A stretch of DNA of 64,000 bases, from positions 182,685 through 246,684 of IMG/VR virus record IMGVR_UViG_3300037067_027684; one strand, given 5' to 3'. Shown here piece after piece: positions 9,504 to 58,761 of this stretch (position 1 is its first letter; each line of letters starts with the position of its first letter). The notes under the pieces were generated by a model. It was not told where the DNA came from. It was given only the letters and a program-made list of their open reading frames with translations, and searched no databases. The position numbers and the translations under genes were made by a program. This stretch comes from a virus. Taxonomy: Duplodnaviria > Caudoviricetes.

Positions 9504-10529
9504 TTAGAGTTTGCTCTTTGCCAAATAAGCAGGACTACGTTGTTTGAGGATTAACCTTTCAAGAGTCGGGTGTTTGATCACAAATCCCTCTCTATTGACA
9601 GCAGCAAGGCGACTCTGCCCGTCACTCATAACCTTGATAGACGATCCATTGAGGAATTCCCTCAATTTACCAACATAGAGAATTGGCACAACGTGTTCTT
9701 CTGGCATATTCTCAGCACCGTAGAATTCTGTAACCTCCTTTTTGAATTCCTCAAAGGGGAGCCAATTGAAGTTGACCTTGATGTCAAACATCCGAACTTC
9801 ATGCTCCTTTAGCTTATAAATATTGTCTTGGATGCCAGGACCGATCATTTCACCGTAAACGGCGGCTGGCTTACCATATTTCTTATTGAGTTGTAGAGCA
9901 AATTCGGTTAGCCTGCATCTTTTGGCAACCTTCCAGAAGGTGTGTTCATCACCCCCAATCGGGATTATAGTTTTGTTATGTTGATTCACCATAATCTCAC
10001 CAGAGTTAGCGAAGGTACTGAAGTTGGTGCCCTCTAACTTCTCTGTGATGACTACTTCTTGGTCCATGAGGAGTTGTGCTACATCAACATGACGATCAGC
10101 GCTCTCGATGTCGTAGGCTGACAAGCCATCAGGGAGGGGCAGTAGCTTGGCATTGTCACAAATTATTTCTGGTGGTTCATATTTGGTGACGCCAAGGTAA
10201 TTGGTGATTTCTTCTGGCTTGAGGTCGTTTGGGATCAGGTCTGTTTTGCTTACTATTCCTTGGCTGATTTGACCTCTTAGTTTGACTGTTTTGATCCTAT
10301 TCATTTCTTTTCCGGCTAGCTTCCCAGTTAGGCCGAGTTTTTCGATGAGAGGGGCTGGGAGCAAGGAGTCTACTGGGAAGTAGAGGCATTCTTCACCAAT
10401 TGTAAATTGTCCTTTGCCGATAACGAATTGGAAGTCCATTCCTTCTAGGGATGCTAGTTCTATGCGGTCGGCATCTTTGATTGGTGAGATTGTTTTGATT
10501 TTCTCTTTGGTTACTCCGAAGAATGACAT
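9504..10529 (-). CDS. ATP-dependent RNA ligase, DRB0094/Rnl5-like
   Basis: N-terminal OB module (PIKDADRIE; RIKTVKLRGQISQG), motif I EKLEGT, YGEMIG, FDIK, EGFVIK. Confidence 0.85.
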   Translation of the reverse strand: MSFFGVTKEKIKTISPIKDADRIELASLEGMDFQFVIGKGQFTIGEECLYFPVDSLLPAPLIEKLGLTGKLAGKEMNRIKTVKLRGQISQGIVSKTDLIPNDLKPEEITNYLGVTKYEPPEIICDNAKLLPLPDGLSAYDIESADRHVDVAQLLMDQEVVITEKLEGTNFSTFANSGEIMVNQHNKTIIPIGGDEHTFWKVAKRCRLTEFALQLNKKYGKPAAVYGEMIGPGIQDNIYKLKEHEVRMFDIKVNFNWLPFEEFKKEVTEFYGAENMPEEHVVPILYVGKLREFLNGSSIKVMSDGQSRLAAVNREGFVIKHPTLERLILKQRSPAYLAKSKL

Positions 10530-30859: not shown

Positions 30860-31798
30860 TTTGTAATCTCCTGTTTCCACCGTGGAAATGAAATTTATGG
30901 CTTCAAGCCAGCCTTATTCAAAGCTCGTGCGCAGATCAAGGCGAAATTCCGCTTTGCGAATTCAGCCACAAACTTGAAACCTTTCTTATCCTCAAACACA
31001 ATGTCCCACGAGATTGTAGGAGTGCATTTTCCACCAACCTCACAGTTTAGACATCGCTTCACTATGAACTTAGACTTCTTTGACTTAGCCATTTGACCTC
31101 CTAATACGTTGGAATTTCTATGAAACATCCGCTTGGAAGCTTCACCATTCCTCTCCGGTCACCCAACTCCGCCCACCTGTAAGCCTCAGATTCAGACTTC
31201 ACAGCAACCATAGCAATCTTGTCATTCAACAACGTCTGTTCACGATCAAGAACCAAACCCGAATGCCTTAAAGCCTTCTCCATTCCACCAAGACTCCATT
31301 CACCACCAACCTCATCCCATTGAACGCGCATCAGGCACCTCCAAAGTTCCCCGCAATGCACGAGCAAAATCTTCTTGAGTCCAACCACTAGCACGAAGCC
31401 GCTCAACCTCAGCTTCAGCCTCAGCCAGAACTTCAGCCTTGGTTAAAATCTTGCCCCACGGACGCTTGCACCTTGGACAACGCAGGATTCGATCCTTATC
31501 AGAATCAACTTGAACCAAACACCTTGGGCATCTCATTTCATTCTCCTTAGTACTTAGACAAATCGCAAACTTTGATCTCCCTTTGAAACCGTCGATGCTT
31601 GTATCCAGAGAATAAGCAACTGGATCTGACGCAAATCAAATAATCCAAAGCATCTCTGACTTCTAAAGAATCTGGGGCTTCAGATAGAATCTTAATCAAC
31701 TTTTCGCAAATTAGCGTAACTCCGCCACGTCCTTTGCCTCTGCTGCTTAGGAAGCGGTTCATTTTACTGTGTTTCAAGAATATTTCCTCCGTGGAAAC

Positions 31799-31826
31799 AG
31801 GGATACCCCGTTGAGGAGTATCCCTG
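31799..31826 (-). terminator. GC-rich hairpin, probable intrinsic terminator
   Basis: CAGGGATAC...GTATCCCTG inverted repeat downstream of 31861..32181. Confidence 0.5.
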
Positions 31827-31860
31827 CTTATTAATCAGTCAATTTAGAGGTGGGAGCTAC

Positions 31861-32181
31861 TCAGATTTCGTCTAATGCACTGTCCAATTTTGCGTCAAAA
31901 TCAGACGTACTCCATTTCAAAGCTTCAGCAATAGCCTGCGAGGCGGTCAGATCACCACCTTCTGCGTCATTGGGATCTTCAGCGGGCCAGAGTCCGTAAT
32001 AGAAGTTATTTGGTTGCTCTGAAGCTCCACGAAGGACGTAGACCTTCTTAGCTCCTCCTATAACCAGAGCATTCCTGGGTGAAGCATTCAGGTAAGCTTC
32101 CATTTCAGGTAGGCTCTTCTTAACCAGAGGTTGATCAGCCAACACTTCGTCATTCGTTAGGCACACCAATGTCGAATCCAC
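31861..32181 (-). CDS. hypothetical protein directly downstream of twister 1
   Basis: GGAGGTG RBS then GTG at 32181; the track's longer start reads through the ribozyme. Confidence 0.65.
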   Translation of the reverse strand: MDSTLVCLTNDEVLADQPLVKKSLPEMEAYLNASPRNALVIGGAKKVYVLRGASEQPNNFYYGLWPAEDPNDAEGGDLTASQAIAEALKWSTSDFDAKLDSALDEI

Positions 32182-32193
32182 TTTCACCTCCCT

Positions 32194-32267
32194 CAGGACT
32201 TGGGACCTGTCTCTTTCCGGACTGGAAAGAGAGTTCCTTACAGAGGGAATCACCCTCTGCCCTCGGT
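32194..32267 (-). ncRNA. twister ribozyme 1 (P5-type permutation), predicted cleavage 32240/32239
   Basis: cc-GA-GGG-[cagaggg/ccctctg]-UAA-gga-AC-[P3]-CAGG-UCCCAAGU-CCUG; all core elements present. Confidence 0.85.
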
Positions 32268-32759
32268 CTCATCCGGCTCCAACTCACGCTCACGATCAAT
32301 AAGCCTCTGATACAACGGATGAACCTCAGGCTCCACAGAACTAGTCACCGGAACCTTAGTCCCAGACGGAACCTTGCCAGTAAAGTAAAAATTCGGATCG
32401 CCATTCCCAATAAAAGCATCCTCATCCTCAAACGGCAAAGAACCACCAATAGAACTCCGATCAGCACTTGAAAAACCAGTCCACACCCCAATCGAACCAT
32501 CCCTCAACAACAGAACCTCAGACCACTCACCAATATCATTAACAGATTTTGCATTCAAAACCTGCTGAACATCCGCATCTCCCTCACTAAACCCATAATT
32601 CTTCACCATATTCGCAGCCACCAACTTCTTATACAAGGGTAACGCAGCTTCCTCATTGTCAAAAGCAATTGCATAAGGAGATTCATCCATCTCATCAACA
32701 ACCACAAATCGACCACCAGTCATCAGCGCCTCATCCAGTTTCTTGTCAAAATCAGCCAT
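32250..32759 (-). CDS. hypothetical protein; stop codon lies in the P1 loop of twister 1
   Basis: AGGAGGTG RBS before the ATG at 32759. Confidence 0.7.
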   Translation of the reverse strand: MADFDKKLDEALMTGGRFVVVDEMDESPYAIAFDNEEAALPLYKKLVAANMVKNYGFSEGDADVQQVLNAKSVNDIGEWSEVLLLRDGSIGVWTGFSSADRSSIGGSLPFEDEDAFIGNGDPNFYFTGKVPSGTKVPVTSSVEPEVHPLYQRLIDRERELEPDETEGRG

Positions 32760-34619
32760 CCAACACCTCCTCAACATTTATTTTTACTCCTTAAAGTTTC
32801 TTCAACACAGACTCCATGTCGGGCCTCAACGCAGAAGCCACACTAACAAACAATGGCTTCTCACCCTTCAGATGCCTCCCCAGAGTTGTCTGACGAATCG
32901 TGGACTCAAACTTCTTAATAATTTCAGAGAACACCGAATCCAAACCACGCTGAAGCTTGATATTCCTCATCTCAACAATCTTGCTCATGTCCCGTAAGAG
33001 AACCGAAACCAGACAACTCACAGCCACCGTCTCAGTATCAACCCACCCAGACGGAGCCGCAGCAACAAACTCATCAAGAACCTTGGCGTATTCCTTCGAT
33101 TTGCTCTTCTCCTTCAAAGCAGCCATTAATTCAGCGCTCTTCCCTTCCCACAATTTCTTGAGTTCTGCTTCATCCATTATTGTTTCCTTTTAAATTCGCC
33201 GTGGTGCTTAACCCAAATTGCAATGTACCGATCCCGATCAGCTTCAGTCCAACTTGGGTCAGGTCGAGCAAAACGCTCATCAAGGAATGCCCCGACTTCC
33301 CTCAGGTAGGCTAGTGATTTCTCCTTCTCAGCGGTGTGAGCAGGAGAGACTTCTGTGCCGCGACTATTGGTCATTCTTCCTCCTCATCAACTCTGCCAAT
33401 GAACATCATCAAACCCTCAAGGCTAACGATCTTATCGGCCTTGAAAGGCTGATTGAATTCTTCAACATCAGAGTTGACAATATCTCCACGAGCCTCAACC
33501 GCATCAACAAATTCACGAACCTCCTCTTCACTCGATCCTGTAACCCCGAAAACCCAGGGCTGATTCTCCATGTTATGGTAATGAACTCTGACACCCTTAG
33601 CGCAGTTAATCATTTCTCCTCCTTATTACTCTTCCTCATCTTCATCCTCGCCCTCACCATCCGGATCAGGCTCCTGAAAATTCAACGTCAAACGAGTCGG
33701 GTCATCTTCATTTTCATAATCCAAAATCTCCAACCCATCCTTCCGTCCCGCCACAAACTCCTTAACCTTTACCACCTCATCTGGCGTCAAGTTCGATACA
33801 GAAAATAACAATCACCACAAATAAGATCAAAATCATGCTGGGGCATGTACTCTGTATCAACCTTCTCCTTCCCAACCAGCTTCTTCAAATCCCGAAGAAT
33901 CTTAGCTCTCTCAAGCATACTTGTCTCCTCTCATTCGTAGGGGCACCACTGACACGCATTCTTAGCCAAACTCATTCCTTACCTCCTTTCAAACACCGAG
34001 TCGGTCGAATTCTGGAATTTCAACCCACACTGAGAGCAGAACCTCCGCGCCTCAGCACAACTAACAAACGGCAACTTATTCAACCGTTCACCACCCGAAT
34101 CCAACAACCACACGCCATCCTTCTCAGATGAAACCCGCACAACCTCTCCACTCTTCTGAATCAAATCCAAATTGCTCATTCTACTCATTGTACCCCTCCT
34201 TTCACAAAGTTCAATGCGTTGTCATTCATGTTGTTGAAGAATTCATTTATGTCACAACTGGGGATAACAGCCAAATCCTGAACAACCCCTTCACCAGTCA
34301 ACACCCCAACACTCTCACTAACCAATTCCCAACCCAAACAACCACAACCACGACCACCATGAACATCAAAACACTCAGCAACCAATCGACCAGCGCCGAA
34401 ACGAGTCTTCAAAAAATCAACAACCGAAGTATGCTTAGCGGGGCCAAAAACCAAAGCCCAACACCCATTAGGCTGATCACACCCACCAGAACCCTGAAAA
34501 ACAAAGAACCTCTGATTGACATCCAGAACCTTGCTCATCGTACCTAGAGCCTCAGTCTTAAACCAACTAAGTGCCTCTTCTCCAACAAAATTCTTCATCT
34601 TTTTCTTCCCTTTCAATGA

Positions 34620-34937
34620 TTAAGGTTTGGGTTTGGAGACATCGCACGTCTCCTTCAAAATTCGAGCACTCACAACCACGTACTCATCAGCAGGCAAACG
34701 CATCTGTTGGTAAACCCTGGCGAACAAATCCCCAGGTTGAGAATCACGAGCAATCTTCTCACCATCAAGAGTACACTTCAAAATCCCAATCCAATAATCC
34801 CGCGAATCACGTAATGCCTGACAATCCAACGAATTAGGATCACGCTTCACAGCATCGCAAATCCGAAGCGTATAACCAGAAATTCTCTCCTCCAGAGCAA
34901 CAACAAAAGCTTGACGAGCAATCTCGAAAGTTTTCAT
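34620..34937 (-). CDS. hypothetical protein directly downstream of twister 2
   Basis: GGAGG RBS overlapping the end of P4; ATG at 34937. Confidence 0.65.
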   Translation of the reverse strand: MKTFEIARQAFVVALEERISGYTLRICDAVKRDPNSLDCQALRDSRDYWIGILKCTLDGEKIARDSQPGDLFARVYQQMRLPADEYVVVSARILKETCDVSKPKP

Positions 34938-34945
34938 GAAACCTC

Positions 34946-35018
34946 CCTGGACTTGGGACCAGGACCCTTTCCACCGTGGAAGGGTGGCCTTACGGGGAGT
35001 CAACCTCCCCGCCCTCGG
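34946..35018 (-). ncRNA. twister ribozyme 2, predicted cleavage 34992/34991
   Basis: cc-GAGGG-[cggggag/ctccccg]-UAA-ggcc-AC-[P3]-CCUGG-UCCCAAGU-CCAGG. Confidence 0.8.
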
Positions 35019-35330
35019 TTACCGAACAGCATGAATCTCAAACCCCTCAACCGGCACATAAACCTCACGAGTCCTAAAAGACAACGCATGCTGCCACCCA
35101 TCAACATAAGGGACGCAAACATCCTGCTTCTCCAACCTGTGTAGAGCCTCCTTCGCCTCATCGTTATTCTCATCCCGCACTTCAGAACCGAGAACCAACT
35201 CCAAATCAGCAATAACCTCGTTCGCCTCCTCCTGAGTGCCAACAACCACCAAATTGCCGGTGTCAGGCGCATTCCCATCGTAGTCACCGTAAACCGCAAC
35301 CTTCTCCTCACAGACAACCTTCTTACCCAT
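35019..35330 (-). CDS. hypothetical protein ending immediately before twister 2
   Basis: AGGAGGTG RBS; TAA at 35021-35019. Confidence 0.65.
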   Translation of the reverse strand: MGKKVVCEEKVAVYGDYDGNAPDTGNLVVVGTQEEANEVIADLELVLGSEVRDENNDEAKEALHRLEKQDVCVPYVDGWQHALSFRTREVYVPVEGFEIHAVR

Positions 35331-36771
35331 TCAACACCTCCTTGACTTACATCCACTCACTCAACTTAAACCTCGGATCAACCTTCAACGCAGCCTTCAC
35401 AGCCTTAGCTGTCGCTACCCCACTCTTAGACTTCTTCCAAGCAGCCACACTCCCCCACTCACCACCAACCTCCTCCAAATGAGTAGCCTCCGCCTCAGCC
35501 GCATCAGCAAAAAGCTCAGCAACCTCAAGGTGATTCAACTCCTCAAAATGCTCAGCAATAGACGCACAACCATCAGCATGAATCCCAGAACCCTGATGCC
35601 ACCGAGACGCCTTCGCCGCAGCCTCAAAAGCCCTAACAGAAGGTTTCTTCGACTCAGACATTTCACACCTCCTAATCATTATCAGCCAAATACTGCTTAT
35701 TCAGACCCGCCAGAACATTAAGGATGTCAATGTGAAGCACATAAGCCTTCGCCCGATCATCCTTTTCAGGCAAATCCTGCCACTTCTCAAGCATCTTCGC
35801 AATCGAATCCAACTCACGAAATTCAAGAACAATCCTACCAGGATCTGCATCCGCAACGTAAATCTCCAACCTATTCAAGAAACCACGCATAACCTCAGCA
35901 TCATAATGCGACTTAGTACAAGCCCCAATAAGCCGTACATCCTCCCTCGAAAGCAACAATTCCGCCTTGGGAGTCCTGATAATCTTAGTCAGCGTCATTT
36001 GAACCTCCTAATTTTAAGGAACATAACTTTCTTCATTGTACTTCTCCATTTGCATCCTAATCATCAACCGAATAATCTTCTGAGCCTTAGGATCATTCGG
36101 AAAATGCAAAGCACCACTACCCTCACCACTCAACCACCAAAAACTCAACGGAATGCTGTTGACAGTAGTTCCAAGACAAGGCAAATGATCGTCAACCCAA
36201 TAATCAACAACCTTGACCCTAATCATCTCCTTGCCAGCTAAAGCCTTTCGAAGCCTCTCCTGCTCCTTCTCAGTCAACTCATTGAAAAACCGCTTGAATT
36301 TAGTGACCTTCATTACTCCCTCCTGGAAGTTCCAAATCCTCAACAACCTCACCACTCACACCCTTAACCCTCGGACGAGCAGCCATCCACCCACCCATCG
36401 GGTGCGGCTCCAATAGCCCCTGTCTCGCCATATCACATAAGAACTGCCCAACCAATTCACGATCAACCCACTTCTCCAGCCCAAAACCCGAATACTCAGT
36501 CGGAATCTGAGCCAGAAAACCAACCCCACTCCTCGCCCTCTCCAAATCCTCCTTCAACAACTCAGCAACCTGCCTCTTCACCCAAGCACGAGCAGCATTG
36601 TACGCAGGACGTGGGATAACCCCAGTAAACCGCTGCTGATGCAACCTCCGATTCACCCCACCATTCCGAAGTTGAAGCTGAGTCTGCCGAATCCTCAACT
36701 TATGCTCAGCAATCATCGCCTCAGCCTTCTCAGGTGGCAGCATCCTCCGACAAATCCCCTCAAAGTCCATT

Positions 36772-36987
36772 TCAACCTCCCTTCTTCACGTTGACAAACT
36801 TAATCGTAAAATCCTCCCCCTCAGGCAGAGATTCATCAACAATCATTTCAATCTGCCTCGTCAACTGCTTGACAGTCAATGGGGTCTTGCTCGCACCCCA
36901 ATACCACAATCCAACATTCCTCTGACTACTCTTGCCTGGGACCCTCGGTTTCACGAATGAACCAGCTTTGGTAACTATGACTACCAT
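36772..36987 (-). CDS. hypothetical protein downstream of twister 3
   Basis: GGAGG RBS embedded in a TTTCC-N5-GGAAA dyad; ATG at 36987. Confidence 0.6.
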   Translation of the reverse strand: MVVIVTKAGSFVKPRVPGKSSQRNVGLWYWGASKTPLTVKQLTRQIEMIVDESLPEGEDFTIKFVNVKKGG

Positions 36988-37019
36988 CTTATTTCCTCCA
37001 TGGAAAGAGAAAGTATTTT

Positions 37020-37086
37020 CTGGACTTGGGACCAGACCCACTTTCAGTGGGGGCCTTACACCCCAAAGGGGAGGGGTGCCCTCGGC
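37020..37086 (-). ncRNA. twister ribozyme 3, predicted cleavage 37058/37057
   Basis: gcc-GAGGG-[cacccc/ggggtg]-UAA-ggc-..-[P3]-CUGG-UCCCAAGU-CCAG; second pseudoknot partner imperfect. Confidence 0.7.
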
Positions 37087-37304
37087 TAATAACAATAACC
37101 ACCATGACTGTGAATAACATGCACCACCTTAAACCGACCCCCACCAACTTCCTCTTAGAAAAAGAAAGAAGAGGCCCATTCAAACCCAACAAAACCTCAC
37201 GCGGATCGTCACACTTATCAGCCTTATAAAAATCACCAACCCTCAACAACCTCCGAAACCTCCGATCCCTATAACTCCAAACCCCATAAGTCTTCCTCAT
37301 AACT

Positions 37305-37363
37305 CCTCCTTATTCACCACCAACCACACACCTCCTTATTCACCACCAACCACACACCTCCTT
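37305..37363 (-). repeat. 26-bp tandem repeat (about 2.3 copies), each unit an RBS plus a 5-codon ORF
   Basis: Minus strand reads AAGGAGG-tgt-GTG GTT GGT GGT GAA TAA twice. Confidence 0.8.
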
Positions 37364-38582
37364 TAACCCTTCATGCAATCACGACGACGCTTACGCCGCT
37401 CCCTCTTCTTACGCTGCTTACGCGTCATACCTCACCCCTTCTTAGACAACACCATCACCTCAGGCAAACTAAACTCAGGAACAGACACCCCCAACACAAG
37501 AACAGCAGCCCCCACCTCACCCTTCATCGTCAACACAGCAGCCACCCTACCCTTCATCGCCTCAGCACCAGCCCTGAAAGCAACCCGAGCAGCCTCCTTC
37601 AAATCCCCAACCCGAACCTCCACACCCTCCCTCATAGCCTCAAACGCCTCAACCTGCCCCCTCAACTCCGCAATCTCCCTCACCAAAACCTCACGCGAAG
37701 GAGAAACCCCAGCCCCCTCCACCCCCTCAGCCCGCAACACCCCCACCAACCCCTCCAACCCAACCCCCGAATGAGCAACCTCATCAGACCGACCCTCATA
37801 AGACAACTCCCACCTACCATCCCCAAACACAGCAATCTCAAAATCCCCAACAAAACCAGTCACAGGATCAGACTCATTCAAAACAACCAACAACTCACGC
37901 CCCCTCAACCAATCCAAAATCCTAACCCCCTCACACCCAAACTCACTCATCACACACCTCCACTCGCTTCGCTTGTGAAAAGACCAAAACCCCAATTTCC
38001 ACCACGGAAAAGACCAATCCCCTACCCCAAACCACCAACCACATAACAAAACCAACCACTAATCACCGAAATATTCGTACGAACCTCCTCAACCTCCAAA
38101 TCCCGAACCCAACTCAAACAACCAGGCAACTCAACCAACAACCCCAACTCCCCAGCCTCATACAACTTAAACAACTCATCCACATCCTCCACAGTAAGAG
38201 GAGCAGTAGAATAAACAGCAACAACCTCACCATCAGAATTATGAGGATTAACAATAGTCGTAATCGACACCACAGAACTCCTCACATCACCCATTCAACA
38301 CCTCCTCGCTTGTCCTCGCTTCGCTCGGAATTTCCTCCGTGGAAATAGAAACATCTTTCTATCGCCTCAAAACCAATCCCAAATTTAAAACTCTCAAACC
38401 CCGAAATCCCCTCACAAACTCACAGTACTTAGGCTAACCAATTCCCTCAATCCGAGAAATACCCCCTTAGAAATAATTCCTGAAAACCGAGTGGGTTATA
38501 ATTCGAGGTGTTCCACATGGTGATTTCTCATTCCTCACGAAGTATCTCAAAATTAAACTAATGTACTCATTGATACGAAAAG

Positions 38583-38618
38583 CCCCAACCCAGGAATTAT
38601 TTCCCCTGAGTTGGGGTT
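38583..38618. terminator. hairpin in a ~400-bp non-coding gap
   Basis: GCCCCAACCCAGG...CCTGAGTTGGGGT, followed by T residues on the minus strand. Confidence 0.45.
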
Positions 38619-39524
38619 AATTGACTATTAGAGTAGTTCTAGTTGTAGGAGAAACCATTCCAAAATTAATCAACATACACATCGAAAATATCTGATGCTT
38701 GAATCAAACGCTTGTTTGAATCACTCATTTGAAACAAGCACAAATCCCCCCTTTTTTAATCAGCGTTCCCGTCAACAAAGTGAGTAAGCTTAAACCGCCA
38801 AATCACCTCATCAGCAGTTCGGGACCAGAATCGGGGTTCCAGGATAGAATTCCTCACGATTTCGAGTAAATCCCCCTTCGTCCCAACCCACCTGAAATCG
38901 TACTCACCCCAACCAAGAGTGATTTGATTTCCTTCGTGGAAGTCCCTGATCATCTTCTTCATGTCTTCTGATTCTTCGTCCAAATCCAGCTCCAACTCAA
39001 GTGTTTCCTTGGTGAGATCGAGGATCGGACCCATTAGCCCAAGTGAGTTGGCTGGTTGGATGTTGTTGCTTTCTGTGCGGAAGACGAGAAAGAGATCTTC
39101 GCCTCCACGGTCGGTTCCGTGAACTAAGTCGCAGCTTACTTTGATTTTCATTGGCTTCCTCCCTTACTCCGTTTGGTTAGGCGTAGAGGATTGCGCAGAG
39201 TGCACGACCAGAAGCACTAACGATTTGAGACTCCTCGTCATTCCCACGTGTGACTTCAAGGAGATGAACACCACTTTGAGGTGAAGTTAAAAGCCTGACT
39301 GTAGCCTTGTACCTGTCTTTCCTCTCGTCGCCATCATTCCAACATTGGACGGTTGCTACCTTGCCCTTGATTTTCAGGAGTTTGATGTTGAAATCTAACT
39401 CCATTTTGCCGTAACTGTTGGCTCTTTGGATCACTTCTTTGAGGATGTTCATTTGGCTCTCCTTGCTGTCTGTAATCGTTTTCATCTGACCGACTTCGGA
39501 TTCAGATGTGTTTATCAGCTCTTG

Positions 39525-39806
39525 CTATTTGCTGGGGTAGACTGCCTTGCACTTGGTGCAGCGGTAAACCTCAAAAGGATGTTTCTTGATACGGTAAATC
39601 CTCTCACCGCACCTGCAGAGTCCTTTGGGGCGTCTTACCTCAAAGACTTGTTTCAAATCAGGTGGGTCGAGTGGTGGCATCCAGGCGTTGAAGAGTAAGC
39701 TCATGATTGCTTTGCCTTCGGGCATTTTACTTAGGATGACTCGGGCGTCTTTCAGGTCTTCTGGTTTGAAGGTGTTTGTGACATCTTCGATTTTTAGTGG
39801 TTCCAT
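39525..39806 (-). CDS. hypothetical zinc-ribbon protein downstream of twister 4
   Basis: CRCG...CTKC; GGAGGAG RBS directly after P4. Confidence 0.65.
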   Translation of the reverse strand: MEPLKIEDVTNTFKPEDLKDARVILSKMPEGKAIMSLLFNAWMPPLDPPDLKQVFEVRRPKGLCRCGERIYRIKKHPFEVYRCTKCKAVYPSK

Positions 39807-39818
39807 TGGCTCCTCCCT

Positions 39819-39887
39819 CAGGACTTGGGACCTGTGAGCTTAAATGCTCAGTTCCTTACAGAGAGGTTTTAGCCTCTCTGCCCTCGG
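39819..39887 (-). ncRNA. twister ribozyme 4, predicted cleavage 39858/39857
   Basis: cc-GAGGG-[cagagagg/cctctctg]-UAA-gga-AC-[tgagc/gctca]-CAGG-UCCCAAGU-CCUG. Confidence 0.85.
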
Positions 39888-39888
39888 T

Positions 39889-40212
39889 TTACTTTTTGAG
39901 TTGGGCCATTGCAGCTTTGAGGAGTTCCTTCTTGGCGGCTTTCTTCTCAGCCTTCCGCTGGTCACTGCATTTGGTGCAGGTGTCGATTTGGAAGAGGTCG
40001 GAGGTGAAGACCCAGCGGGAGTCGTCGCAGCAGAGTTGGCAGCTGATTTTCACTTTGTACTTGCCTGCGGCTTCATCGAAAGTGAGGGTGTCGCTGAAGG
40101 CGTGGGGGTATTTGTCCAGGTTGGCTTTGATTTTCTCCAACTGGAGGTCCTTCTTGGCTTTGATTTTCTCGGCGAGTGCGAGAATCTCGGGTGTGACTTC
40201 TGTCTGTGGCAT
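39889..40212 (-). CDS. Lys/Ala-rich zinc-ribbon protein, paralogue of 43831..44169
   Basis: CxxC...CxxC; shares EVTPEILA, KYPHA and VFTSDLFQIDTC; AGAGGAG RBS before the ATG at 40212. Confidence 0.75.
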   Translation of the reverse strand: MPQTEVTPEILALAEKIKAKKDLQLEKIKANLDKYPHAFSDTLTFDEAAGKYKVKISCQLCCDDSRWVFTSDLFQIDTCTKCSDQRKAEKKAAKKELLKAAMAQLKK

Positions 40213-40277
40213 GGTCTGTCTCCTCTGCCCCGTTGGGGCGTGTGGGTTTGGGCGGGTTCTCCCGCCTCTCCCGTCCT

Positions 40278-40305
40278 GTGGCGCTCCCTTGGCTCTCTGG
40301 GGAGG
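40278..40305 (-). promoter_or_regulatory. bipartite promoter-like motif, copy upstream of 39889..40212
   Basis: Plus strand GTGGCGCTCC-N7-CTCTGGGGAGG; one of five similar copies. Confidence 0.5.
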
Positions 40306-40529
40306 TGCAATTTGGTTGAAGTGGTGAGTCACCTCCTGTACCCCCGCTTGTTGGTGGCGGTTGGTTGGTATTCTGGGGATGGTTTGAATAGCAAGAGTTG
40401 ATAAATTCAATCAGAGACGATTCCCTACCTTAAGGTTCCTGACAGCAAGGGTTGCTAAATTCCAGCTTGGAAAGGGTATCCCGCTTGGACGTTCACGGAT
40501 ACCCTAGCTTCTCCCCGTTCGGGTGGTGA

Positions 40530-40560
40530 CTGGGAGGAAGAGAAACAACTCTTCCTCCCA
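40530..40560 (-). terminator. perfect hairpin just after the 40566..40937 stop
   Basis: TGGGAGGAAGAG-loop-CTCTTCCTCCCA. Confidence 0.5.
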
Positions 40561-40565
40561 TTATG

Positions 40566-40937
40566 TTAACGAACCAAATAGCGACGGAATTCTTCTGAAA
40601 CTTTCTTTCCGTCAGTTCCGATTGCATCTTCTCTGGTGACTTTCTTTCCGTCAACTCCGATTGACCATCGGTCGGAGCAATCACTTCCTGCGTTCGGAGT
40701 TTGTTTCTTTTGTTCGAAGGCTTTTTGGAAGATTTCGATGGGGTAGACGGCTTCAAGGCACGCCGTTAAATCAAGGCGGTTGAGGAAGTACCAGCTTGCG
40801 TCAACCTCGTCGTACCCGTTGATTTTTCGGGCTTCGTTTTCTTCGGCTGGGAAGTCGAAGATTTTGACGTAGTGTCCGTCCCAGTTGGTTTTGTTGCAGA
40901 TTGCAACGTAGGTTCCTGCTTTGGTGTAGTTGTGCAT
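40566..40937 (-). CDS. hypothetical protein downstream of twister 5
   Basis: GGAGG RBS after P4; C-terminal IGxDGKKV duplication. Confidence 0.6.
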   Translation of the reverse strand: MHNYTKAGTYVAICNKTNWDGHYVKIFDFPAEENEARKINGYDEVDASWYFLNRLDLTACLEAVYPIEIFQKAFEQKKQTPNAGSDCSDRWSIGVDGKKVTREDAIGTDGKKVSEEFRRYLVR

Positions 40938-40948
40938 TGGGCCTCCCT

Positions 40949-41075
40949 CCAGGACTTGGGACCTGGTCGCTTTCCGGTGTGGAAAGCGAGTTCCTTACAA
41001 GGGAGAGGGATGACTTTGGGCACCCATGTGTTGATGGGCTTTGCCGTTAGTTCTTTCGCTCTCCGTTGCCCTCGG
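40949..41075 (-). ncRNA. twister ribozyme 5 with enlarged P1, predicted cleavage 40997/40996
   Basis: cc-GAGGG-[caacggagag...ctctcccttg, ~50-nt loop]-UAA-gga-AC-[tcgctttcc/ggaaagcga]-CCAGG-UCCCAAGU-CCUGG. Confidence 0.75.
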
Positions 41076-41311
41076 GACTTCCTTAATGCGTTTTCACTTT
41101 TCTGCCCTCTGTGCCTCTTTGCTCCTAAACTCACAAAAAGAATTCAAAATGTTTTGGAGTTTACTGAGTGCCCGGTGGTCGTGTCACTTGTTCACCCCTT
41201 TCGGTTTGCTTCGCTTGCTTAATTTGTGGGAATAGGGAGGGGGGCACTGCAGTGCCCCACCAGTGAGGCGAAGCTCCGCCACAAGCGGCCTCTAGCCTCA
41301 ACTAAAAAGGC

Positions 41312-41485
41312 AGACCAGAGAGGGATTCGAACCCTCGTCTCCCCCATCACCCAACCCTCACCTGCAAGTGAGTCTTGAGTGTGGTTTCACAGTTCCACTT
41401 TGGAAGGCCAGGTTGCTTGCAGACATCCTGTTTTCTGTTGGTGGATTTTCCTGTAGGGCGCTCTAGACCACTGAGCTATCCGGCC
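41312..41485 (-). tRNA. tRNA-like RNA with a 107-nt structured insert replacing the anticodon loop; no assignable anticodon, CCA not encoded
   Basis: Acceptor GGCCGGA/TCTGGTC, D-arm GCTC-AGTGGTCTA-GAGC, anticodon stem CCCTA/TGGGG, variable loop GAGAC, T-arm GAGGG-TTCGAAT-CCCTC, discriminator U. Confidence 0.85.
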
Positions 41486-41534
41486 AAAATCTGTGGGGAA
41501 GGCCCGCAATCTGCGTCCCTTCCCCGCTCCGGTC

Positions 41535-41560
41535 GTGGCGCTCCGCTCCGCTTGGGAGGG
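41535..41560 (-). promoter_or_regulatory. bipartite promoter-like motif upstream of the tRNA-like RNA
   Basis: GTGGCGCTCC-N6-CTTGGGAGGG; about 35 nt nearly identical to 44287-44321. Confidence 0.5.
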
Positions 41561-41901
41561 ACGCTCGGGAGCCGTTTCCTTTGCTCGACCTCAAGCCGAT
41601 TCCTCAGCGAGGGAGCGAATCTTAGTGAGCGGCAGAATTCACCTGAGTATTCCCAGGACTGTTGGTCATGAGCCAATGGGGAAAGGCAGCTCTACGACTG
41701 GCTGGCTATTCCATTGACGCCTGAACCCTGCTCACTCCCCCTTCCACCTCTTAATCATCGACCCAGTGCAAATGGGGGTGGTTGGGTGCCCTTCGGGATT
41801 TGCACTCCCGTCAGGTCAAAACGTTAACAGCAAATTCCCAAACTCCGGTTCGGCTTTGATCTTAACCCGCCAGCGCAAGGCGGAGAACTAGCCCGTCAAC
41901 C

Positions 41902-41992
41902 CCAGGATTTGGGACCTGGTCTCGTCCACCAAGATTTCCTCGGTGGAATCGAGCTTCCTTACAGCGGAGAGTAACCTCCCCGCTGCCCTCGG
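41902..41992 (-). ncRNA. twister ribozyme 6 (variant loop UCCCAAAU, possibly attenuated), predicted site 41961/41960
   Basis: cc-GAGGG-[cagcgg../..ccgctg]-UAA-gga-ag-[long P3]-CCAGG-UCCCAAAU-CCUGG. Confidence 0.6.
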
Positions 41993-42057
41993 TAAACACG
42001 ACTTTCAATAGAGGAGCGCACTCCGGCCCCTCGTTCAACCACGATAGTGGCACCCCC

Positions 42058-42318
42058 TCACTTCCCTAGGGAGTCAATAACCCCCAGAATCCGCACCTCG
42101 TGAGCGTTCAACAAATCCAACGCCCCAAGGACGTTCATCATATCGTCCTTCGACGCCGAACAAATGGCATAATTACGAAGGATCTCCCCACCGATCTGCT
42201 CCACAACCCGCCTCTGCCTTGCGGTATTCTCCAGAATCCGGATCTTCATCTTCTCAATGTGTGGGTTCTGGATTACCCGCACTTCTTTCACTGTCTGAGG
42301 AATAGCTTTGACTAGCAT
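42058..42318 (-). CDS. hypothetical protein between twisters 7 and 6
   Basis: GGAGG RBS directly after P4 of twister 7. Confidence 0.65.
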   Translation of the reverse strand: MLVKAIPQTVKEVRVIQNPHIEKMKIRILENTARQRRVVEQIGGEILRNYAICSASKDDMMNVLGALDLLNAHEVRILGVIDSLGK

Positions 42319-42329
42319 GTAACCTCCCT

Positions 42330-42404
42330 CCAGGACTTGGGACCTGGACCTTTCCGGAGTGGAAAGGTGTTCCTTACACCCCTGATTTTAAGGGGTGCCC
42401 TCGG
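42330..42404 (-). ncRNA. twister ribozyme 7, predicted cleavage 42376/42375
   Basis: cc-GAGGG-[cacccct/aggggtg]-UAA-gga-AC-[acctttcc/ggaaaggt]-CCAGG-UCCCAAGU-CCUGG. Confidence 0.85.
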
Positions 42405-42756
42405 GATTCATGAAATCAACCTTCCACTTCAGAACCTTCTGGTGACCGTCGAACTCGTCGGTGTACTTGAAGACCCACGTCTTCTGTCTCAACATGAAAT
42501 CCTTGAGGAAAATGAGCGTCCCCTTGAAATCCCTGTTGGTGTGGCAGCTCCTGCCTGCGCCGAAGTGGATGAAGGCGTAGTCACCTTGGACGACGGTGTT
42601 TTGGCTGAGGAACCACCATGCGAAGTAGCCTTGGTTGTCTTTTGGTGCTGTTTTCAAGTCTTTCACTGTGGCCAGCAGGTTTTGGAGTGCTGGGATGTTG
42701 AGGATTGACTTGTGGAATGGGACAACTCCATTCCTGATTTCGATGCAGTTACTCAC
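42388..42756 (-). CDS. hypothetical protein; stop codon lies in the P1 loop of twister 7
   Basis: GAGG RBS; TAA at 42390-42388. Confidence 0.65.
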   Translation of the reverse strand: MSNCIEIRNGVVPFHKSILNIPALQNLLATVKDLKTAPKDNQGYFAWWFLSQNTVVQGDYAFIHFGAGRSCHTNRDFKGTLIFLKDFMLRQKTWVFKYTDEFDGHQKVLKWKVDFMNPEGTP

Positions 42757-42774
42757 TGCGTTTCCTCCCTGGAA

Positions 42775-43017
42775 CTAGGGGATTGTCACTAGTTCCGTGT
42801 GGAACTTCGAATTGCCGCCACCGATTCCCTCCCTCACGCGAAGGATTTGGGTTGGTGTTGCGCAATTCTTGCAGGTTGTTAACCCCAATTCCAGACGTTC
42901 GGTTGGGATTACCTCTCCACAAGTGCAGACTCGTCCTTCCCGTTTGAGTTGGATGAGTTTTTGCAGCTCGTCCAGCTCTTTGGGTGAGAGTCCTGCGAGG
43001 ATCTTTCTTATCTCCAC
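42775..43017 (-). CDS. TraR/DksA C4-type zinc-finger protein
   Basis: CTCGEVIPTERLELGLTTCKNC matches C..CGE.IP..RL....C..C. Confidence 0.65.
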   Translation of the reverse strand: MEIRKILAGLSPKELDELQKLIQLKREGRVCTCGEVIPTERLELGLTTCKNCATPTQILRVREGIGGGNSKFHTELVTIP

Positions 43018-43030
43018 TTCTCACCTCCCT

Positions 43031-43108
43031 CCAGGACTTGAGACCTGGTTACTTTCCGGAGTGGAAAGTAGTTCCTTAAGAGGGGAAAGGAATCCCCTCC
43101 CTCTCGGA
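43031..43108 (-). ncRNA. twister ribozyme 8, predicted cleavage 43078/43077
   Basis: tcc-GA-GAG-[P1]-UAA-gga-AC-[P3]-CCAGG-UCUCAAGU-CCUGG; the pseudoknot covaries (CUC/GAG instead of CCC/GGG). Confidence 0.9.
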
Positions 43109-43110
43109 CT

Positions 43111-43245
43111 TCACCGATTCCCGTCAGACTCCTGCATCCGCTCACGAATCCGATCCTTGATCTCCTGACGGGTTGGGCCGTGAGATCGGTGCTTCGACCT
43201 CCCACGAATCCTCAACCCCTCACGCAACGCATCTGCTCTGCTCAC
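43111..43245 (-). CDS. 44-aa Arg-rich small protein ending just before twister 8
   Basis: AAGGAG RBS, GTG start, MSRADALREGLRIRGRSKHRSHGPTRQEIKDRIRERMQESDGNR; not in the track. Confidence 0.5.
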   Translation of the reverse strand: MSRADALREGLRIRGRSKHRSHGPTRQEIKDRIRERMQESDGNR

Positions 43246-43271
43246 GTTCTGCTCCTTTTCCAAGGTGGAAA

Positions 43272-43562
43272 TCAACTCCTGCCAGCCGAATCCCTCACTT
43301 CCCCATCAGCGTACCGAACACAAAAATGCAAAAGCTTGTAGACGTGCATGTTCCCCTCGCCATCCAAGCGAGCAACCTTGATCCCCTCAACACCAGGAAC
43401 ACGAAACCAGAACATCCGGAGATCGTGAAACACGTACTCCGTCTCCTTCTCGTTCAGCGGAATGAACGCCGCCAAACGATCCGTGTGAAACATCTCACAC
43501 AGAGCCTTTTCCACATCCTTCGTGGTAAGGTGTGTTGCAATCGTCACAGCAACTGGGACCAT
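43272..43562 (-). CDS. hypothetical protein downstream of twister 9
   Basis: GGAGGTG RBS directly after P4. Confidence 0.65.
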   Translation of the reverse strand: MVPVAVTIATHLTTKDVEKALCEMFHTDRLAAFIPLNEKETEYVFHDLRMFWFRVPGVEGIKVARLDGEGNMHVYKLLHFCVRYADGEVRDSAGRS

Positions 43563-43575
43563 CGAACACCTCCCT

Positions 43576-43650
43576 CCAGGACTTGGGACCTGGCCCCTTT
43601 CCTCAGTGGAAAGAGGGGTCTTAAGCAGGGACGGAACCCTGCTCCCTCGA
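43576..43650 (-). ncRNA. twister ribozyme 9, predicted cleavage 43623/43622
   Basis: tc-GAGGG-[agcaggg/ccctgct]-UAA-ga-..-[P3]-CCAGG-UCCCAAGU-CCUGG; P2 covaries (tc/ga versus cc/gg). Confidence 0.8.
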
Positions 43651-43790
43651 ACAGCTTAGTGTCGAACAGCTAACTACCGCATGGCTCAACCCTCAATTGC
43701 CTTGCTTCGCTCGTCTAAGAAAGCCTCCAAGCGAATGCCGAGCTAAACCCCTCTTCAAGCGAATGTTGAGGCTTTCCACCCTGGAAACAG

Positions 43791-43830: not shown

Positions 43831-44169
43831 TTACTCAGCCGCCTTGTCCGCAGCGATCTTGGCCATCGCCGCCTTGATCAGCTCCTTCTTCACCGCCTGC
43901 TTCTCCTTCTTCGCCTCGCCCGCGCAGTCCACGCAGGTGTCGATCTGGAAGAGGTCGCTCGTGAACACACGGCGCGTCTTGCCGCACTTCGTGCACTCGA
44001 TCTCGACCGAGTACTTCTTGGCCTCGGGGTTGTACGTCAAGGTGTCCGCCTTGGCGTGCGGGTACTTGCTCAGACCTTCGCGGGTCTTGGCAAGCTTCGC
44101 ATCCTGCTTGGCCTGCAGCTTCTTGGCCATCGCGAGGATTTCCGGCGTGACTTCCACTTCGTTTGCCAT
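43831..44169 (-). CDS. Lys/Ala-rich zinc-ribbon protein, first gene of the leftward array, with GC-rich codons
   Basis: CTKC...CVDC; paralogue of 39889..40212; AGAGGAG RBS. Confidence 0.8.
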   Translation of the reverse strand: MANEVEVTPEILAMAKKLQAKQDAKLAKTREGLSKYPHAKADTLTYNPEAKKYSVEIECTKCGKTRRVFTSDLFQIDTCVDCAGEAKKEKQAVKKELIKAAMAKIAADKAAE

Positions 44170-57240: not shown

Positions 57241-57518
57241 TAGAAGTTGATGAACAACCATATATTCCGTCACAACCGAGTCATATTCAAAGAAGACCAG
57301 AACCGTGGGAAATTCAAAAAGCTCGTTTTTTCGGTAGAGTGAAATACTTTAATCAAGTTCATGGTAATGGGTTTATTGTGGGAGATGACAAGCGAGATGT
57401 GTTCTTCAACATATCTGAATATAGAATAGGAAAGCCAACTCTAAATGCCAGAGTTAGCTTTTCAGTTAGACAAACACAACGCGGATTAACAGCAGTTAAC
57501 ATCAAATGTAAGAATTAG
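57237..57518 (+). CDS. cold-shock domain protein
   Basis: GRVKYFN..GNGFI...DVFFNIS...VSF...RGLTAVNI. Confidence 0.8.
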   Translation: MIEVDEQPYIPSQPSHIQRRPEPWEIQKARFFGRVKYFNQVHGNGFIVGDDKRDVFFNISEYRIGKPTLNARVSFSVRQTQRGLTAVNIKCKN

Positions 57519-58761
57519 GGTCACATCCATGAACATCCATTACTATTTGATCGTCAAGATATTGACCTGTCCCAACGAAGCGAACCAAAGAACTTAGGCT
57601 ACCAAGATTTTCTTCGCACCATTGTAATACTTTAATCGGCAATTGTGGTGCTCTTAAATTACCGTTCATTCCAGTTAGATTGGCATCAACATAGTTCATG
57701 AAGTTCAATGACAGAATGATATCACCATTGGCTTGATTAAACTTGATTGCGTCTTCTAAGTTTTGTTTTGAGAACGTGAATACTCGCCGTGGGAGTTTGG
57801 TTACAGATGTAATCTCCATTATGGGTTCTTTAGAACTACTATCTTGTGTAATTTGTTCCCAAGTAGTTTCTTTTTGATCTGGGTAACCTGGCCCACTATT
57901 TCCGACGTAGATTTCAAGTGGCTTCCCATCTTTCTTATATTGTTCGACCTCTACCCAAGTTAGATGTTTTCCGGTTTCTTTGTCTAGATATTTGTTATTA
58001 TTAATTCTGATTGGGAATGTTCTTAGGTTTAGAATTACGTGTCCAGCATAATGAACTGGCAACATTGCGTCATCCATGCCAGCCATCGTTGTACAATTTC
58101 TGCTTGTACAGTAGGGGAACATTTCTGGTAGGAGATATGACAGCTGGAACCCTTGTGCTATCTCAAACATACCAGCCTGTCCATGATCTAACCTATTCAT
58201 TATTTCGCGTGGTGTGTCACAAATAAATTCTTTGAGTTCTGGTATGTCTCGTGCGTATCTTGCTTCTGGCCGTCTCAGCACTCTTCTTGCTCTATTGGCA
58301 CCACATCCATGAGCAGTTGTGCCTCGTTTCATGGTCCCGTCGTGTCTCTCTTTAACTGTGTGGCCGTCAAAATCTACAATACCTCTTTCGAAGGCTCCAT
58401 CTATTTCCTGTAATATGGACACTAGTGGACTGATTCCAATTTTGTTGTGAGGAATTTTGTTTTTCTCTATTTCTTTCCAGAAGGCTGGAAGTTCAATCAT
58501 ACAGCCTGGAGACAAATAAAGTTTCTCGTATCTTTCTGGTTGATAGGCACAACTATTAAATGTTTGATAAAAATAGCTGTCTCCATTTCTAATCTTAACC
58601 CAGTGCCCTGCTTGCGGCATGAACGTATTGACTGCGAATTGCCAGTTGTTGGCATGGTGTGTGATAAATGAGCCGATTTTGCCTTTCCCAGACGATCCTG
58701 CTTGGGCGTCAAGCAGGATCGTAAGTTTACCAGGTTTAAAGCAGAAGTTGGTGTTGTACAT
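57502..58761 (-). CDS. purZ: PurZ-type N6-succino-2-amino-dAMP synthetase (adenylosuccinate synthetase family)
   Basis: GSSGKG (Ser for the PurA catalytic Asp), AQGF, YCTSR, RTFPIR, SGPGYPDQKE, TSVTKLPRRVFTFS, NFMN. Confidence 0.8.
   Translation of the reverse strand: MYNTNFCFKPGKLTILLDAQAGSSGKGKIGSFITHHANNWQFAVNTFMPQAGHWVKIRNGDSYFYQTFNSCAYQPERYEKLYLSPGCMIELPAFWKEIEKNKIPHNKIGISPLVSILQEIDGAFERGIVDFDGHTVKERHDGTMKRGTTAHGCGANRARRVLRRPEARYARDIPELKEFICDTPREIMNRLDHGQAGMFEIAQGFQLSYLLPEMFPYCTSRNCTTMAGMDDAMLPVHYAGHVILNLRTFPIRINNNKYLDKETGKHLTWVEVEQYKKDGKPLEIYVGNSGPGYPDQKETTWEQITQDSSSKEPIMEITSVTKLPRRVFTFSKQNLEDAIKFNQANGDIILSLNFMNYVDANLTGMNGNLRAPQLPIKVLQWCEENLGSLSSLVRFVGTGQYLDDQIVMDVHGCDPNSYI

What the first reader, a model, noticed from the sequence alone, without database searches (positions are those of the whole stretch)
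41312..41485. tRNA body carrying a 107-nt kissing-loop domain in place of the anticodon loop
Seen: acceptor, D, anticodon and T stems are intact, but 41453-41347 replaces the 7-nt loop. The insert is closed by CACCAAC/GTTG-GGTG. It holds hairpin CAGGATGT-CTGCAA-GCAACCTG (41430-41409) and hairpin CTCAC-TTGCAG-GTGAG (41372-41357), whose 6-nt loops are perfectly complementary, plus a TTCCA-AAGT-GGAA hairpin. No U33-type anticodon loop can be rebuilt at either junction, and the insert is too short for a group I or II intron. Inference: a natural tRNA scaffold, in which host RNase P/Z processing stabilises a cargo RNA. The loops could pair within one molecule or interlock between molecules, as phi29 pRNA does. 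A decoy for anticodon nucleases is an alternative.
Basis: partly seen in the sequence, partly recalled or inferred. Interest (0 to 1): 0.88.

Follow-up and report, generated by a model that had tools for sequence, protein, structure and literature searches.

The report
Phage tRNA frame with kissing arms
An uncultured giant phage encodes a 174-base RNA that keeps a complete tRNA body but replaces the codon-reading loop with two long arms whose tips pair with each other; it is conserved by selection, almost certainly cannot decode, and shares its design with phage T4's still unexplained 'species 1' RNA.

Summary
Real and under selection. A 247-kb phage encodes a 174-nt RNA (41485-41312, minus strand) with an intact tRNA elbow, but its anticodon loop is replaced by a three-way junction carrying two long arms whose 6-nt loops are complementary. 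In a 78%-identical relative, 12 pairs change and all 12 still pair, while the loops stay fixed. A distant, 5'-truncated probable homologue has the loops swapped, a compensatory change. No conserved splice rebuilds an anticodon loop, so it is not an intron. No Rfam family fits the insert. The arm lengths and 6-nt kiss closely match T4 species 1 RNA (rnaC, function unknown), but rnaC lacks a D arm and the insert model does not detect it, so this works like rnaC without being shown to be an ortholog. It lies in a twister-bounded non-coding cassette with other conserved RNAs. Best reading: a stable, non-decoding tRNA mimic with an intramolecular kiss (about 0.85), acting as a decoy for a host tRNA-binding factor (about 0.45). 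Expression is untested. The scan has noted similar tRNA-shaped phage RNAs on other DNA.

The parts
41312..41485 (-). Whole tRNA-framed RNA, 174 nt; CCA not encoded in this strain
   Evidence: Rfam tRNA 41.5 bits; fold; homologues L042, L115, L050
41479..41485 (-). Acceptor stem 5' strand (pairs with 41319-41313; discriminator U at 41312, A in L115 and L050)
41460..41476 (-). D arm, 4-bp stem, A14, G15, GG
   Evidence: stem invariant in three full-length homologues
41341..41458 (-). 3-bp anticodon-stem remnant (41458-41456 with 41343-41341) opening into a three-way junction (linkers 0, 3, 0 nt)
   Evidence: best fold (pair probability 0.49) and RNAalifold consensus
41388..41455 (-). Arm A: long irregular hairpin, strands 33 and 29 nt
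   Evidence: 4 pairs changed on both sides in its apical helix
41417..41422 (-). Kissing loop A (CUGCAA; UUGCAG in L050)
41344..41384 (-). Arm B: 15 pairs, strands 17 and 18 nt
   Evidence: 3 pairs changed on both sides, 2 on one side, none broken
41362..41367 (-). Kissing loop B (UUGCAG; CUGCAA in L050)
41320..41336 (-). T arm with canonical T loop
41393..41405 (.).
41903..41993 (-). Upstream twister-P5-like ribozyme (5' boundary of the non-coding cassette)
   Evidence: 30.6 bits, below the gathering score; syntenic copy in L115
41575..41902 (-). Conserved upstream non-coding RNA with its own complementary loop pair (41805-41799 with 41772-41766); abuts the tRNA body directly in L042
   Evidence: no Rfam match
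41487..41575 (-). 90-nt GC-rich repeat insertion, absent in L042 and replaced in L115; related copies lie upstream of the zinc-ribbon gene; possible promoter
41227..41308 (-). 82-nt conserved structured element after the discriminator (96% identical in L115)
40950..41076 (-). Downstream twister-P5-like ribozyme (3' boundary)
   Evidence: 23.7 bits; repeat family D1

Best explanation
This is a gene for a stable, non-decoding tRNA mimic of the same design as T4 species 1 RNA, but with a complete tRNA body. Shown from sequence comparison: the acceptor, D and T arms and the elbow contacts are kept; the anticodon stem is cut to 3 bp and opens into a three-way junction whose two arms are held by covariation and end in complementary 6-nt loops. 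Inferred: it is transcribed with the small-gene, twister-punctuated region; the flanking twisters cut out the non-coding cassette; host RNase P and 3' tRNA-maturation enzymes free the RNA and CCA is added (CCA is encoded in L050); the long arm A bends at its internal loops so that the loops kiss within one molecule and lock a compact, nuclease-resistant domain where the anticodon loop would be. Most likely job (inferred, untested): acting in trans as a decoy or inhibitor for a host factor that reads the tRNA elbow or acceptor end, such as a tRNA-targeting defence nuclease or sensor, while offering no anticodon loop to cut. About 0.85 for the non-decoding intramolecular-kiss RNA, about 0.45 for the whole statement including the decoy role.
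For: Structure under selection: against L115, 19 substitutions hit 12 pairs and all 12 still pair; 0 of 200000 random placements do so; 7 pairs change on both sides, 100% of cells pair, slid controls 33-55% (only three sequences). Loops are invariant while their stems change. Probable distant homologue L050/L098 has the loops exchanged, both outer kiss pairs compensated. Discriminator (U or A) and acceptor pairs 5 and 7 vary, which argues against a fixed aminoacyl identity. T4 rnaC folds with arm A strands of 34 and 30 nt (here 33 and 29), 18 nt from arm A to loop B (here 20) and a perfect 6-nt loop pair kept in 82-86% identical homologues. Context: twisters on both sides, among small genes of unknown function, in a phage whose only ordinary tRNA has a CUA anticodon.
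Against: No expression, processing or binding data. Only three distinct full-length sequences; loop covariation rests on one truncated, weakly scoring homologue (38.1 bits with the whole model, equal to the best ordinary tRNA; 17.2 bits, E 0.1, with the insert-only model). The 3-bp stem at the junction has pair probability 0.49. The element is deleted or absent in several related strains and phages, so it is dispensable in some lineages. No target is identified; the decoy role rests on genomic context alone.
Confidence: 0.45

Rival explanations
1. Scaffold and cargo: the tRNA body serves only as a processing and stability tag (as mascRNA does for MALAT1), freeing itself and the neighbouring RNAs of the cassette, and the kissing domain is an aptamer for a small molecule or a phage protein.
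For: In L042 the tRNA body abuts the 330-nt upstream RNA directly, so an RNase P cut would set that RNA's 3' end; L115 holds several more modules and a second tRNA-shaped element in the same cassette. Junction plus kissing loops is the layout of several riboswitch aptamers (own knowledge).
Against: No Rfam aptamer match. Unpaired internal-loop bases vary between homologues; the one invariant stretch is explained by the genome-wide dyad and is absent in L050.
Confidence: 0.22
2. The loops pair between molecules and build rings or cages, as phi29 pRNA, ROOL and GOLLD do.
For: Both loops have a palindromic UGCA core; the upstream RNA carries a second complementary loop pair with the same core. 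In ROOL and GOLLD, kissing loops first read as tertiary proved intermolecular (10.1101/2024.12.08.627333).
Against: Arm lengths suit a bent single-molecule fold and match rnaC; no Rfam ROOL or GOLLD match; the gene lies among small non-structural genes. Sequence alone cannot separate intra- from intermolecular pairing.
Confidence: 0.15
3. It is aminoacylated and enters the ribosome without a codon, like the tRNA-like domain of tmRNA, to rescue, stall or divert host ribosomes.
For: Complete acceptor and T arm; CCA encoded in L050; a large domain in place of the anticodon arm is the tmRNA layout.
Against: No G3:U70, a D stem is present, no tag frame, ARAGORN finds no tmRNA; discriminator varies.
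Confidence: 0.1
4. It is an ordinary tRNA gene with an intron that is spliced out, by itself or by phage enzymes.
For: The body is a good tRNA; ARAGORN with introns calls it tRNA-Leu or tRNA-Ala; the phage encodes an RNA ligase (PF09414).
Against: Of all single deletions, the window gives only one loop with U33, needing a 6-nt variable region, a 4/5 stem and U at 37, and L115 gives none. ARAGORN's anticodon differs between 96% identical strains. No group I or II match; no RtcB. The would-be exon bases covary with the insert (pairs 103-141, 104-140).
Confidence: 0.04
5. It is a decaying tRNA pseudogene with a chance insertion.
For: Sequence identity to L115 (82%) is no higher than that of the two upstream genes (83%, 79%); truncated in L050.
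Against: All changed pairs are kept; third codon positions are at 70%; a further strain shows 3 changes in 184 nt here against 38 plus 7 gaps in the adjacent 562 nt.
Confidence: 0.02

Closest known systems
Phage T4 species 1 RNA (rnaC; NC_000866 70908-71046; expressed late, function unknown: PMC9697503, PMC3014915)
   Same: Acceptor stem, T arm, no anticodon, one long and one short arm with perfectly complementary 6-nt loops; nearly the same arm lengths. The loops of L050 differ from T4's only by a compensated exchange of two central pairs (4 of 6 bases equal; suggestive only).
   Different: rnaC has no D arm and no anticodon-stem remnant and lies in a tRNA cluster; here the D arm, G15:C48 and a 3-bp stem are kept, and the gene lies in a twister-bounded cassette with no ordinary tRNA nearby. 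No sequence-level link: the insert model does not find rnaC; the whole model gives 12.7 bits on a partial match.
Canonical tRNA (Rfam RF00005)
   Same: Acceptor, D and T arms with elbow nucleotides; 41.5 bits.
   Different: No 7-nt anticodon loop, 3-bp stem, 111-nt structured domain; variable discriminator.
YrlA bacterial and phage Y RNAs (PMC4201824)
   Same: Non-decoding tRNA mimic that keeps D/T tertiary contacts.
   Different: YrlA is permuted (T, closed acceptor stem-loop, D) with a Ro60-binding stem; here the order is that of tRNA, and the phage has no TROVE/Ro60 gene.
ROOL and GOLLD RNAs; phi29 pRNA
   Same: Phage RNAs with kissing loops, often near tRNAs (10.1101/2024.12.08.627333; PMC12990946).
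   Different: Far smaller than ROOL and GOLLD, no Rfam match to any of them; the kissing domain sits inside the tRNA rather than beside or around it.
tmRNA
   Same: tRNA-like top half with a large insert in place of the anticodon arm.
   Different: D stem present, no alanine identity pair, no tag frame, not found by ARAGORN or Rfam.

Membership tests
T4 species 1 RNA (rnaC) type | Acceptor stem plus T arm, no anticodon loop | tested here: met
T4 species 1 RNA (rnaC) type | One long and one short arm with complementary 6-nt loops | tested here: met
T4 species 1 RNA (rnaC) type | No D arm; arms join the acceptor directly | tested here: not met
   full D arm and 3-bp stem in all three full-length copies
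T4 species 1 RNA (rnaC) type | Detectable sequence or model homology | tested here: not met
   only the T arm aligns; insert model finds no rnaC
T4 species 1 RNA (rnaC) type | Abundant stable RNA processed like tRNA | not testable with these tools
   no RNA run holds the stretch
Decoding tRNA | 5-bp anticodon stem with 7-nt loop, U33, purine 37 | tested here: not met
Decoding tRNA | Elbow nucleotides U8, A14, G15:C48, GG, T loop | tested here: met
Intron-containing tRNA (group I, group II, bulge-helix-bulge) | A conserved excision that restores a canonical anticodon arm | tested here: not met
   no intron family in Rfam searches
YrlA Y RNA | Permuted T-AS-D order | tested here: not met
   order is acceptor-D-insert-T-acceptor against PMC4201824
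YrlA Y RNA | Ro60/TROVE gene nearby | tested here: not met
   (record about 91% complete; host gene not excluded)
tmRNA | G3:U70, no D stem, tag reading frame | tested here: not met
   C3-G70 and a 4-bp D stem
ROOL / GOLLD / pRNA | Match to the family model | tested here: not met
ROOL / GOLLD / pRNA | Oligomer formation through intermolecular loop pairing | not testable with these tools
   needs native gels or cryo-EM

The most novel reading that the evidence does not exclude
The RNA is the intact-tRNA form of a widespread phage module that T4 species 1 RNA represents in reduced form, and it is one of several co-processed structured RNAs in a ribozyme-excised cassette that disable a host tRNA-sensing or tRNA-cutting defence, or assemble with each other through their shared UGCA loops: an RNA-only counter-defence operon.
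Probability: 0.2. Interest if true: 0.85.

Novelty: new variant of a known kind. Interest (0 to 1): 0.6.

Why it matters
T4 species 1 RNA is a long-known, expressed phage RNA that still has no function, and I found no paper describing its class. This family shows the same two-arm kissing domain grafted onto a complete tRNA, which suggests how such RNAs arise from tRNA genes and which surface (elbow and acceptor) is worth keeping. The natural loop swap gives a ready rescue experiment, and rnaC gives a laboratory model in which the decoy idea can be tested. It is also a natural counterpart of the engineered tRNA-scaffold method, and such genes are missed by default tRNA finders and by Rfam's fast search.

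Tried and rejected
Pattern scans: tRNA-with-long-insert and loop patterns in viral contigs gave only chance hits, tandem tRNAs or other tRNA-shaped RNAs; the metagenome and genome scans gave chance hits. BLAST against described phages found only short tRNA matches or nothing. More distant phages reached through the zinc-ribbon gene lack the element, though most are fragments. No RNA holder listed; only DNA contigs could be laid, so expression and splicing are untested. Sigma-70 promoter and terminator scan: nothing upstream. Host not identified (uninformative). Literature searches found no description of this family.

Full report
Setting. The window is the last 64 kb of a 246,684-base virus record, held by landfill and groundwater DNA runs. 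The finding lies on the minus strand among small genes separated by twister-P5-like ribozymes (nine matches in the genome, eight in this region). The only ordinary tRNA in the record has a CUA anticodon. The host is unknown.

Observation. Rfam scores 41485-41312 as a tRNA (41.5 bits, E 4e-7) with the anticodon region looped out. U8, A14, G15:C48, the D-loop GG and the T loop are all in place; CCA is not encoded. The loops CUGCAA and UUGCAG are perfect complements, which 24 of 4677 shuffled inserts match. A loose scan with no energy filter finds such hairpin pairs about once per 4 kb of this genome, so the single sequence is suggestive and the homologues carry the weight. The best fold keeps three pairs of the anticodon stem and opens into a three-way junction with arm A (41455-41388) and arm B (41384-41344).

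Homologues. DNA pattern scans failed, so I went through neighbouring proteins. L042 is 96% identical; its seven changes leave the junction fold intact. L115 (same as L114) is 78% identical, syntenic and full length (128.6 bits). On the three-sequence alignment, RNAalifold returns the junction fold; every cell pairs, seven pairs change on both sides, and slid controls fall to 33-55%. Against L115, 19 substitutions hit 12 pairs and none breaks; no random placement in 200,000 does that. Overall identity (82%) equals that of the neighbouring genes (83%, 79%) and exceeds third codon positions (70%), so selection acts on the fold, with the loops fixed. With three sequences these counts are few events, but they all point one way.

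A loop swap. L050/L098, from a more distant phage with the same cassette layout and neighbour gene families, holds the 3' three quarters of a similar RNA: two arms, T arm, acceptor strand and an encoded CCA, followed by a twister. Its loops are UUGCAG then CUGCAA, the reverse order, so both outer pairs of the kiss are compensated. Its 5' end is lost to a deletion into a reading frame. Homology is probable, not proven: 83% over the 3' 36 nt (E 0.001), 38.1 bits with the whole model (an ordinary tRNA reaches the same), and best background-beating but weak score with an insert-only model (17.2 bits, E 0.1).

Not an intron. Testing every single deletion, the window yields one loop with U33, with a 4/5 stem, a 6-nt variable region and U at 37; L115 yields none. 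Bases that would be 3' exon covary with the insert. No intron family matches and there is no RtcB, although a different RNA ligase is encoded.

The third hairpin. That pattern suggests a DNA operator (inference). It explains why this stretch is invariant in the three close copies; the L050 element lacks it.

Neighbourhood. Between two twisters (41993-41903 and 41076-40950) lie a 330-nt non-coding RNA with a second complementary loop pair of the same UGCA core, the element, and an 82-nt element 96% identical in L115. In L042 the 330-nt RNA abuts the tRNA body; the window has a 90-nt repeat inserted there. L115 adds further modules and a second tRNA-shaped sequence. None matches Rfam or described phages. 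The element is thus one member of a modular non-coding cassette.

Comparison. Earlier scan notes pointed to T4 species 1 RNA, so I fetched and folded it. It has an acceptor stem, a long arm (strands 34 and 30 nt; here 33 and 29), a short arm whose loop lies 18 nt after arm A (here 20), a T arm, and loops UUGACG and CGUCAA that stay fixed in homologues 82-86% identical. It has no D arm, and my models do not detect it beyond the T arm. The papers call it expressed and of unknown function (PMC9697503; PMC3014915). So this RNA works like rnaC but fails the membership test; shared ancestry is possible and unproven. YrlA, tmRNA, ROOL, GOLLD and pRNA fail on order of arms, identity elements or model match.

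Mechanism. Shown: a selected tRNA elbow and acceptor with a selected two-arm domain and complementary loops, unable to present an anticodon. Inferred from established tRNA and twister biology: release by the twisters, maturation by host tRNA enzymes, and a compact kiss within one molecule. Inferred from context only: a decoy or inhibitor of a host tRNA-binding factor during takeover, favoured because discriminator and acceptor pairs vary while elbow contacts do not. I give 0.45 to this whole account, 0.22 to a processing tag with aptamer cargo, 0.15 to an oligomer, 0.10 to a tmRNA-like ribosome ligand, and 0.06 to intron or pseudogene.

Verdict. A real, uncatalogued RNA family; a new variant of the tRNA-shaped stable phage RNAs typified by T4 species 1, distinguished by a complete tRNA body, a natural loop swap and a ribozyme-bounded RNA cassette. 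The scan has noted similar RNAs in other phages; those notes are unchecked leads and were not counted as support. Function and expression are untested. Interest 0.6.

Noticed in passing
window 41575-41902 (-); L115:1605-1891; L042:5824-6149: Conserved 330-nt non-coding RNA with no Rfam match, a 7-nt complementary loop pair (41805-41799 with 41772-41766) invariant in L115 while the stem changes, and a possible long-range pairing of 41859-41850 with 41600-41592.
   Followed up: partly
window 41227-41308 (-); L115:2479-2560: 82-nt element 96% identical where neighbours are about 80%; ends in a perfect 18-nt palindrome.
   Followed up: partly
L115:2348-2476, and 1486-1604, 1892-2118, 2560-2690: A second tRNA-shaped sequence (acceptor, T-like arm, inserted hairpins) and three further structured non-coding modules in the same twister-bounded cassette, absent from the window.
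   Followed up: partly
window 30874-43787; genome C1 98-227 kb: TTCC-N5-GGAA dyad, 29 copies, strict spacing, in twister hairpins and before genes, also in related phages; looks like a repeated operator.
   Followed up: partly
window 32194-43650 (-); L045-L050, L090-L099, L123: At least nine twister-P5-like ribozymes punctuate the small-gene region; related phages show the same gene-plus-twister cassettes, shuffled and with many different deletions.
   Followed up: partly
L133:3875-4022 (+) and L132:1737-1827 (+): Two other phage tRNA-shaped RNAs of different design: one of 148 nt with encoded CCA and a very long extra arm, one of about 91 nt with an extended anticodon arm.
   Followed up: partly
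G000 C1:301-374 (L002): The only ordinary tRNA has a CUA anticodon, and several TAG-ended frames run on for 300 or more codons: possible TAG read-through or recoding in part of the genome.
   Followed up: partly
G000 C1:46545-53830 (L034): CRISPR array of eight repeats at 61-nt spacing preceded by genes that look like type I-E cas genes (read by eye, not confirmed with profiles).
   Followed up: no
window 57502-58761 (-): Divergent adenylosuccinate-synthetase-like gene (PF00709, E 5e-11, N-terminal part only); could be a PurZ-type enzyme.
   Followed up: no
window 9504-10529 (-): RNA ligase with OB fold (PF09414, PF21189), a possible tRNA repair enzyme.
   Followed up: no
window 43831-44169 and 39889-40212 (-): Two paralogous zinc-ribbon proteins of an unnamed family with 661 representatives at 50% identity, often first in early cassettes and preceded by a GC-rich repeat.
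   Followed up: partly
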